From contig OY740813.1 of the NCBI GenBank assembly GCA_963514005.1, positions 20,894,001-20,958,000 on the forward strand: a stretch of 64,000 nt of DNA, given 5' to 3'. The notes beneath the pieces were generated by a model, which saw nothing but the letters and a program-made list of their open reading frames with translations, was not told where the DNA came from and did no database searches. The DNA comes from Raja brachyura. Its lineage: Eukaryota. Positions 19,831-20,964 of this stretch are shown here, in pieces. Each line of letters begins with the position of its first letter. Within the stretch, counting starts at the first letter, position 1. The translations under genes and the position numbers were made by a program.

Positions 19831-20560
19831 TTAAGGGGTAACTTTATCCACACCAAGGGTGGTGGGTGTTTGGAACAAGCTGCCAGAGGAGGTATTTGAG
19901 GCAGGGACCATCCCAACATTTAAGAAACAGTTAGACTGATACATGGATAGGACGGGTTTGGAGGTATGGACCAAAAGCAGGTAGCGCAGCTGGGACATGT
20001 TGGCGGGTGTGGGCAAGGTGTGCTGAAGGGCCTGTTTTCACACTGTATCACTCTATGACCACATTATACCTCCACCATGCATGAATGCTTCAAAATCAAG
20101 TGATTGAGTTTTATTGCCATATACTCAAGCATAGAAACTTAGAAAATAGGTGAAGGAATAGGCCATCGGCCCTTCGAGCAAGCACTGCTAATCAATATGA
20201 TCATGGCTATTAATCGAGAATCAGTACCTCTTTCCTGTTTATTCCCCATATCCCTTGATTTTGTGAGCTAAATGTAACTCTTTCTTGAAAACATCCAGTG
20301 AATTGGTCTGCACTGCCTTCTGTGGCAGAGAATTCCACAGATTCACAACTCTTTGTTTGTCCTCATCTCAGTTCTAACTACCCCCCCATCCCTTTATTCT
20401 TAAACTGTGACCCCTAGTTCTGAACTCCCCCAACATCGGGAACATTTTTCCTGCAGTTACAGTAAGTGAAAATCTAGCAGGCAAGCAGGATGCTTTCTCC
20501 AACCACCCCCATTTGAAGTCCACTATCTTCCACCGTTTCTACCCAGTGCCTGGTGCTTAC

Positions 20561-20820
20561 TTCCAGCAGCCACTGGTTGTCCTCCAGGATGCACGGAATT
20601 GTCCTCCAGGATGCACGGAACCGCAGCCTGATCCATGCCGGTCACCTGGGCGAATTTGGCACAGAGACACTCACGGCAGCGGCGCAACGCTTCCGACGCC
20701 TTGCACTGAGGCTGCTCCATGGCCGGAGCTGCAGTGAGCGACTCGCCAGCCCGGAAAACACTCGCTAGCCCCGCTCCCCGAATGAATCTGTCCCCGTCGC
20801 TGCTTCTGCTTCCAACTCCC
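20561..20820 (-). pseudogene. TDP2 exon-1-like fragment (UBA-like domain) with intact splice donor, transposon cargo
   Basis: After removing a 22-bp tandem duplication it reads MEQPQCKASEALRRCRECLCAKFAQVTGMDQAAVPCILEDNQWLLE|gtaagc. Compare recalled human TDP2 RRLLCVEFASVASCDAAVAQCFLAENDWEME at the end of exon 1. Confidence 0.7.
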
Positions 20821-20964
20821 ATGGCCCATGCAGTTGATATGAATTTTGAAATTTTCGTTGATCACAGAATTTCTCACGACAGAGCGTGAGAAATTTGTGA
20901 TCTGCGTGAGAATTTGACGAAATGCGTGATTCTCACGCTCAGTGCAAGGGAGTTGGCAGCCCTG

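What the first reader, a model, noticed from the sequence alone, without database searches (positions are those of the whole stretch)
20555..20964. TDP2 exon-1-like sequence, with its splice donor, fused to a transposon end
Seen: on the minus strand a TIR end with TCTCACGC subterminal repeats runs directly into a GC-rich segment. This encodes ...LCAKFAQVTGMDQAAVPCILEDNQWLLE followed by GTAAGC; a 22-bp tandem duplication (20577-20620) breaks the frame. Recalled knowledge: TDP2's N-terminal UBA-like motif is LC.EFA....D.A.A.C.L.EN.W.ME, and exon 1 ends in phase 0 at that E. Inference: the retained donor and intron sequence point to DNA-level capture, not retrocopying. A mobile first exon plus donor could seed chimeric transcripts, here antisense to LHX6, or small RNAs against a DNA-repair gene that removes 5'-phosphotyrosyl adducts.
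Basis: partly seen in the sequence, partly recalled or inferred. Interest (0 to 1): 0.85.

Follow-up and report, generated by a model that had tools for sequence, protein, structure and literature searches.

The report
Transposon relay amplifying TDP2's first exon
In a skate-like fish, the front end of the DNA-repair gene TDP2 (5' leader, first exon and part of the first intron) sits inside non-coding DNA transposons in hundreds of places, likely captured by one transposon family, handed on to a second, and likely carried as a decaying passenger; animal surveys have rarely reported such mass copying of a gene piece by this kind of transposon.

Summary
Observation confirmed, but the flagged stretch is the middle of a larger object. 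Window 18704-22008 (minus strand) is a whole 3.3-kb non-autonomous transposon with 13-bp inverted ends and a 6-bp target duplication, lying antisense in an LHX6 intron; the end at 20964 is internal. It carries about 1 kb of TDP2 (leader, exon 1, donor, ~630 bp of intron 1 with its old retroelement fragments), 87% identical to the native gene: DNA-level capture. At least 715 copies keep the exon end exactly. New here: some copies bear different ends with 5-bp duplications (4 of 5 exact), and intermediates nest that unit inside the second family, whose duplications vary (6, 7 or 8 bp). So the piece likely passed from one transposon family to another. After insertion the exon decays neutrally. 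Chimeric splicing and small RNAs are untested; no transposase partner was found. It is a Pack-TIR, at far higher copy number than the animal cases I read (PMC8277862), and resembles bat HelibatN3-NUBPL (PMC4224331).

The parts
18704..22008 (-). Whole non-autonomous TIR element (family 1 ends), 3305 bp
   Evidence: ends and flanks read; colinear with copies on other contigs
22009..22014 (.). 6-bp target site duplication, left copy
18698..18703 (.). 6-bp target site duplication, right copy
21867..22008 (-). Outer left end of family 1 (13-bp TIR at 22008-21996 plus subterminal repeats); the end that pairs with the duplication
21629..21866 (-). 12-bp remnant of the family 2 left end, then a first, truncated TDP2 piece (leader, ATG 21710, exon cut off near 21629)
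20965..21628 (-). GA-rich tract between the two left ends; shared by the young subfamily
20831..20964 (-).
20819..20830 (-). 12-bp remnant of the family 2 left TIR at the capture junction (inferred from intermediates)
20721..20818 (-). TDP2 5' leader / CpG-rich upstream sequence
20561..20720 (-). TDP2 exon 1 coding part (138-nt subfamily form plus 22-bp duplication 20577-20620; frameshifted)
19834..20560 (-). TDP2 splice donor (GT 20560-20559) and start of intron 1, with CR1-like (~20455-20146) and SINE-like (~20056-19834) fragments also in the native intron (repeat class names recalled)
19595..19833 (-). Right arm and right TIR of family 2, now internal
18704..19594 (-). Further cargo of unknown source (this copy lacks ~860 bp present in others) and the family 1 right end (TIR 18716-18704)
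17402..27437 (+). Host intron of LHX6 (between two homeobox exons) in which the element lies antisense

Best explanation
This is one copy of a high-copy Pack-TIR: a non-coding DNA transposon carrying the 5' end of TDP2, likely captured first by one transposon family, then likely taken over and further amplified by a second, and likely travelling as a neutral passenger. Shown: the structure, the native source, the copy number and two sets of ends with their own target duplications. Inferred order: (1) family 2 (12-bp ends, 5-bp duplications) took TDP2 from at least 222 bp upstream of the ATG to about 750 bp into intron 1, giving a ~1.8-kb element that transposed on its own; (2) that unit came to lie between family 1 ends (13-bp TIR, 6-8-bp duplications); (3) deletions trimmed the family 2 left end to 12 bp; (4) the donor changed from GTAGGT to GTAAGT and the exon shortened in frame (180 nt native; 156, 147, 138 nt in subfamilies); (5) a partial second copy with a GA-rich tract was added upstream, giving the two-left-end form seen here. 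Movement would be by transposases supplied in trans, probably hAT-type (inferred from the ends and duplication lengths; none found).
For: Capture: window vs native 86.6% over 844 aligned columns, continuous from leader through donor into intron; no end of either family detected in 50 kb around the native gene. Copy number: 447 + 269 exact 21-mers across exon end and donor, one being the native gene, reversed controls 0; 1072 exact family 1 right ends; 16 of 40 right ends sampled from contig C1 have a TDP2 piece upstream; 7 of 12 exon ends there carry the exact 21-mer, giving roughly 1200 copies (small sample). Transposition: 33 of 58 end pairs have an exact duplication (18 x 6, 12 x 7, 3 x 8 bp), against 0 of 1966 mismatched pairs at 6 bp or more. 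Relay: of 51 native-donor copies, 9 have only family 2's left end, 8 have it together with family 1's, 19 family 1's only, 15 neither within reach; 5 of the 9 show both family 2 ends, with 5-bp duplications exact in 4 and one mismatch in 1; stand-alone copies reach further into native TDP2 on both sides. Trees: the window copy sits in the short-branched GTAAG clade (99/92; 95/88). Neutrality: rare exon substitutions 20 of 88 synonymous vs 0.26 expected (p 0.54); non-CpG rates 3.0% exon vs 3.2% intron; 20 of 23 indels not multiples of 3 (34 of 40 copies passed the alignment filter).
Against: The deep order is weakly supported in the tree: the native gene groups with stand-alone family 2 copies at only 80/85 and 91/84, and identity to the native gene differs little by class (0.885, 0.880, 0.876, 0.875). 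The nested family 2 unit has no 5-bp duplication at its borders, so step 2 was not a plain insertion, or one flank was later lost. 25 of 58 family 1 pairs lack an exact duplication. No transposase with either end type in 80 fetched hAT stretches. The subfamily-defining exon deletions all keep frame, the donor moved closer to consensus, and 15 of 40 copies keep an open ATG-to-donor frame, which neutrality does not predict for the founder lineages, though 9-bp repeats in the exon may explain the frame.
Confidence: 0.72

Rival explanations
1. The captured CpG-rich leader and first exon helped the element spread (for example by resisting silencing or keeping chromatin open), so the cargo was favoured in founder copies although it decays in individual insertions.
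For: The captured start is the CpG-rich core of the native 5' region (CpG o/e 0.99, GC 0.71 in the 200 bp holding the ATG); it was kept through two carrier families and duplicated in the youngest subfamily; two other cargo lineages with the same family 1 ends also hold GC/CpG-rich, donor-like pieces; bat Helitrons with 5' gene ends reached higher copy numbers (PMC4224331, passages); plant captures may camouflage elements (PMC13317346, passages).
Against: No methylation or activity data. Lineages without TDP2 are about as common (24 of 40 right ends). The sources of the other cargo were not found, so they may be transposon-own sequence.
Confidence: 0.2
2. One reading: the mobile exon and donor seed chimeric transcripts, or small RNAs that regulate native TDP2 (here, antisense to LHX6).
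For: Donor GT retained, in most exact matches as GTAAG (447 vs 269); 11 of 20 GTAAG copies have an open frame from ATG to donor; Pack-TIRs are often transcribed as chimeras (PMC8277862, abstract). With over 700 copies, a few exapted ones are plausible.
Against: Neutral decay across copies; this copy is frameshifted and has C at donor +6; copies are about 88% identical to the native gene, which limits perfectly matched small RNAs (inference).
Confidence: 0.15
3. Single-family capture: family 2 ends are just older internal sequence of one composite element, not an independent carrier.
For: Weak deep tree support; only 5 complete stand-alone pairs seen.
Against: Those pairs have their own 5-bp duplications at unrelated flanks (4 exact, 1 with one mismatch); exact 5-bp matches arose in 4 of 1966 mismatched pairs of family 1 flanks.
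Confidence: 0.05
4. Segmental duplication or retrocopy rather than transposon capture.
For: None beyond the presence of retroelement fragments inside the cargo.
Against: Intron retained; TIRs and target duplications at each copy; dispersed over many contigs with unrelated flanks.
Confidence: 0.01

Closest known systems
Pack-TIRs of animals (Tan et al. 2021, PMC8277862; read: abstract, sections 7, 9, 14, one supplement search)
   Same: Host sequence with an identifiable parent between TIRs, with target duplications and retained intron; the frog Pack-hAT-N8_XT also carries a 5' UTR piece.
   Different: That survey found only 4 multicopy cases (1.4%), the frog example in three copies, and none in elephant shark; here at least 715. 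Its filters (unique best hit, at least 90% identity) would miss an old high-copy family, so part of the contrast is ascertainment. I saw no hand-over between families in the sections read.
HelibatN3 carrying NUBPL in vespertilionid bats (Thomas et al. 2014, PMC4224331; read: passages)
   Same: [quoted passage not shown]
   Different: Rolling-circle Helitron; here two TIR families with target duplications.
Pack-CACTA / Pack-MULE of plants (Catoni et al. 2019, PMC6379663; read: passages)
   Same: Non-autonomous TIR elements with host fragments; hybrids formed from neighbouring same-direction insertions fit the two-left-end forms seen here.
   Different: Other superfamilies (3-bp and ~9-bp duplications); in that model inner ends are lost, here inner ends are kept and two different end families combine.
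hAT5 and hAT6 groups of hAT (as described in PMC12730594; read: passages)
   Same: 5-bp duplications (family 2) and mostly 6-bp duplications (family 1).
   Different: No transposase found; family 1 makes 6-, 7- and 8-bp duplications rather than one length.

Membership tests
Pack-TIR | Paired terminal inverted repeats of one element flanking the cargo | tested here: met
   13-bp ends at 22008 and 18704
Pack-TIR | Target site duplication, different at each copy | tested here: met
   33 of 58 pairs exact, all different; 0 of 1966 controls at 6 bp or more
Pack-TIR | Internal host sequence (100-5000 bp) with an identifiable parent locus | tested here: met
   native TDP2 on C2, ~930 bp, 86.6%
Pack-TIR | Parent not flanked by the element's ends; intron retained | tested here: met
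Pack-TIR (Tan 2021 working filter for young cases) | At least 90% identity and a unique best hit | tested here: not met
   about 88% identity, hundreds of copies; a detection filter, not part of the biological definition
hAT superfamily | Cognate hAT transposase between the same ends | tested here: inconclusive
   none in 80 fetched stretches from 150 + 115 listed hAT-domain matches; 1667 first-look candidates were mostly unexamined
hAT, canonical | 8-bp target duplication | tested here: not met
   3 of 33 exact duplications
hAT6 (family 1) | 6-bp target duplication | tested here: inconclusive
   18 of 33 are 6 bp, 12 are 7 bp, 3 are 8 bp
hAT5 (family 2) | 5-bp target duplication | tested here: met
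   4 of 5 exact, 1 with one mismatch; length alone does not fix the superfamily
Helitron (HelibatN3-like) | No TIRs and no target duplication (recalled) | tested here: not met
   TIRs and duplications present
Processed retrocopy | Introns removed, later exons joined | tested here: not met
   donor and intron 1 retained; exons 2-7 hit only at the native locus among 113 scored matches

The most novel reading that the evidence does not exclude
A CpG-island first exon acts as a fitness cassette for DNA transposons: it passed from a 5-bp-duplication family to a 6-8-bp-duplication family, was kept and doubled because it shields carriers from silencing or drives transcription, and family 1 has collected several such gene front ends, seeding skate genomes with over a thousand portable promoter-exon-donor units, some now spliced into host genes.
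Probability: 0.15. Interest if true: 0.85.

Novelty: new variant of a known kind. Interest (0 to 1): 0.58.

Why it matters
Gene capture by cut-and-paste transposons is routine in plants, but the animal cases in the survey I read are nearly all single-copy. This family shows a vertebrate gene's front end multiplied at least 715-fold by TIR elements, with the intermediate forms still in the genome, so capture, hand-over between families, trimming and end duplication can be ordered from one assembly. It gives a large natural test of whether captured CpG islands help transposons spread, and hundreds of ready promoter-exon-donor units to screen for exaptation. The mixed 6/7/8-bp duplications point to an unusual transposase. 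Practically, the copies can confound TDP2 annotation and read mapping in skates: spurious open frames from them are already in protein collections (P0002, P0124).

Tried and rejected
Expression: no RNA holder listed (18 rows are RNA by guess only). Contigs of four such runs laid on a typical copy (L012:1285-1800) showed no joint or loose end at the donor (1687/1688) among the rows displayed (39 loose ends not shown); several contigs run from exon into intron. This neither shows nor excludes splicing. Transposase partner: PF05699 and PF14291 searches, 80 fetched stretches (some overlapping the same element), no end of either family except one family 1 cargo copy lying nearby; tblastn of 62 open frames from them against three lineage exemplars hit only the CR1-like piece. 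Sources of other cargo: lineage B and C top-30 loci nearly all carry family 1 ends; a pattern designed to exclude the transposon end returned 10 places, all family copies; the middle segment of the TDP2 lineage gave only family copies in 30 of 40 hits fetched, no Pfam hit, no atlas hit, and in the 1.84-billion library only a near-identical 55-aa frame plus one weak, unrelated-looking repeat protein. Selection on the exon: rejected for inserted copies. Literature: 10 searches; none listed a skate TDP2-carrying transposon or these end sequences; Repbase/Dfam and most subscription papers are not searchable, so the family may already be catalogued there as an unclassified repeat. Earlier scan notes: none.

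Full report
Observation. The features described are all present on the minus strand. The window lies on G000:C35; the native TDP2 exons of this genome match a skate TDP2 (P0003, so named by its source) at 90-98% for most internal exons, so the host is a skate-like cartilaginous fish. An unbroken natural copy of the exon matches the TDP2 UBA structure 6q00_B, Pfam UBA_4 and P0003. The 22-bp duplication is private to this copy among 30 aligned.

The whole object. The end at 20964 is internal. The element runs from 22008 to 18704 between 13-bp inverted ends and is flanked by a 6-bp duplication. It lies antisense in the intron 17402-27437 of LHX6. From its left: outer end; truncated TDP2 piece; GA-rich tract; inner end; TDP2 leader, exon 1, donor and intron start; a ~240-bp arm ending in another inverted end; cargo of unknown source; right end.

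Source. The native gene has seven exons at C2:140267905-140287554. The window copy aligns from about 116 bp before the ATG to about 630 bp into intron 1, 86.6% over 844 columns, including two retroelement fragments at the same places as in the native intron. Later exons were hit only at the native locus among 113 scored matches. No end of either family was detected in 50 kb around the gene. This is DNA-level capture. Copies share three residues with P0003 where the native gene here differs (positions read), so capture likely predates those changes in the native gene.

Copy number and mobility. Exact 21-mers over exon end and donor occur 447 (GTAAG) and 269 (GTAGG, including the native gene) times, reversed controls 0. 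The family 1 right end occurs 1072 times exactly. Of 40 right ends taken in order along C1 (L081-L120), 16 have a TDP2 piece upstream; 7 of 12 exon ends there hold the exact 21-mer, suggesting roughly 1200 copies. First-look candidates were 2481 (DNA) and 1905 (protein). Of 58 non-redundant end pairs, 33 have exact duplications: 18 of 6 bp, 12 of 7 bp, 3 of 8 bp; 25 have none; mismatched pairs gave none at 6 bp or more in 1966 draws. A 7- or 8-bp match cannot arise by chance extension of a 6-bp one unless the site is a homopolymer, so the length truly varies. Where two left ends exist, the duplication pairs with the outer one in all but one case (L118).

The relay. Some copies with the native-type donor begin with a different left end, carry more native upstream sequence (to 222 bp before the ATG) and more intron (to about 750 bp), and finish with a ~500-bp arm and a matching right end. 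Among 51 native-donor copies, 9 have only this family 2 left end, 8 have it with family 1's, 19 have family 1's only, 15 neither within reach; 5 of the 9 show both ends, with 5-bp duplications exact in 4 and one mismatch in 1. The family 2 right arm persists inside family 1 copies, including the window (19833-19595), and a 12-bp remnant of its left end marks the capture junction (20830-20819). Intermediates show family 1's arm, ~220 bp of other sequence, then the full family 2 left end. Trees put the window copy in the short-branched GTAAG clade (99/92) and the native gene beside stand-alone family 2 copies with weak support (bootstrap not settled). All 5 listed GTAGG copies have their near left end against unique flanks, while 13 of 16 listed GTAAG copies have it behind a GA-rich tract, so the two-left-end form is late. 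Against a simple story: the nested unit lacks a 5-bp duplication, and identity to the native gene hardly differs among classes. How the first capture occurred (gap repair or template switch as in PMC8277862, or neighbouring insertions as in PMC6379663) cannot be told, since no empty family 2 element was seen.

Function of the cargo. In 34 of 40 copies picked by the donor 21-mer alone (6 failed the alignment filter), rare substitutions were 20 synonymous, 67 non-synonymous and 1 stop (expected synonymous share 0.26, p 0.54); non-CpG rates were 3.0% in exon and 3.2% in intron; 20 of 23 indels were not multiples of three. The inserted copies thus decay neutrally. Hints the other way concern founders: in-frame shortening of the exon, a donor closer to consensus, retention of the CpG-rich core, and two sister lineages with the same family 1 ends whose interiors are also GC/CpG-rich with donor-like motifs (sources not found). 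Only the UBA-coding exon was taken; TDP2's role in removing 5'-tyrosyl adducts (PMC5137425, listing only) has no obvious tie to TIR/DDE transposition (recalled).

Comparison. It meets the biological criteria of a Pack-TIR. In 100 animal genomes Tan et al. found four multicopy cases, the illustrated one in three copies, with filters that would miss this family (12 supplementary files searched for four terms only). The closest match in content and scale is bat HelibatN3-NUBPL, a rolling-circle element. hAT5- and hAT6-like duplication lengths suggest hAT, but no transposase was found, so the superfamily is open. Ten literature searches listed no report of this family; repeat databases were not searchable.

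Verdict. Real, and richer than flagged: a new variant of a known kind. Interest 0.58; higher if the cargo proves to aid spread or to be spliced into host genes.

Noticed in passing
L095:4743-7001; L151-L180: Lineage B: family 1 ends around a GC-rich (0.65-0.67), donor-like interior unrelated to TDP2; 1124 first-look candidates; source not found.
   Followed up: partly
L107:5586-7001; L121-L150: Lineage C: family 1 left end, then ~850 bp resembling a non-coding first exon, donor, intron and acceptor (CpG o/e 0.8), then an internal left end and lineage B's right part; 611 candidates, 220 exact 17-mers. Could be a captured gene start or the lost transposase gene's own leader.
   Followed up: partly
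L120:5560-5830 (absent from the window copy): Middle cargo of the TDP2 lineage has a pyrimidine tract and AG acceptor; splicing from the TDP2 donor would be predicted to end in a stop two codons later. Source unknown.
   Followed up: partly
family 1 end pairs, genome-wide sample: Target duplications of 6, 7 and 8 bp within one end family (18/12/3), plus one 5-bp case (L346).
   Followed up: yes
L118:4820-5269 (minus): Frame resembling exon 1 of a BMP2K/AAK1-type kinase (recalled; no Pfam hit) a few kb from a family 1 element; probably the native gene with an intronic insertion.
   Followed up: no
G000:C32:24779481-24781088, C5:21968040-21969644, C11:52540976-52542583 and others: A different hAT family with long open frames (780-793 aa) at many loci, possibly recently active; neither end type studied here lies near it.
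   Followed up: no
native TDP2 C2:140267740-140267790: A ~50-bp A-rich segment between 10-bp direct repeats upstream of the ATG is absent from the transposon copies examined: a deletion in the founder or a later insertion in the gene.
   Followed up: no
window 16591-16902: 15-bp tandem repeat, 20 copies, 98% matches, inside an LHX6 intron.
   Followed up: no
P0002, P0124: Protein collections hold open frames read from this family's copies (exon read through into intron; middle cargo), likely spurious gene calls.
   Followed up: no
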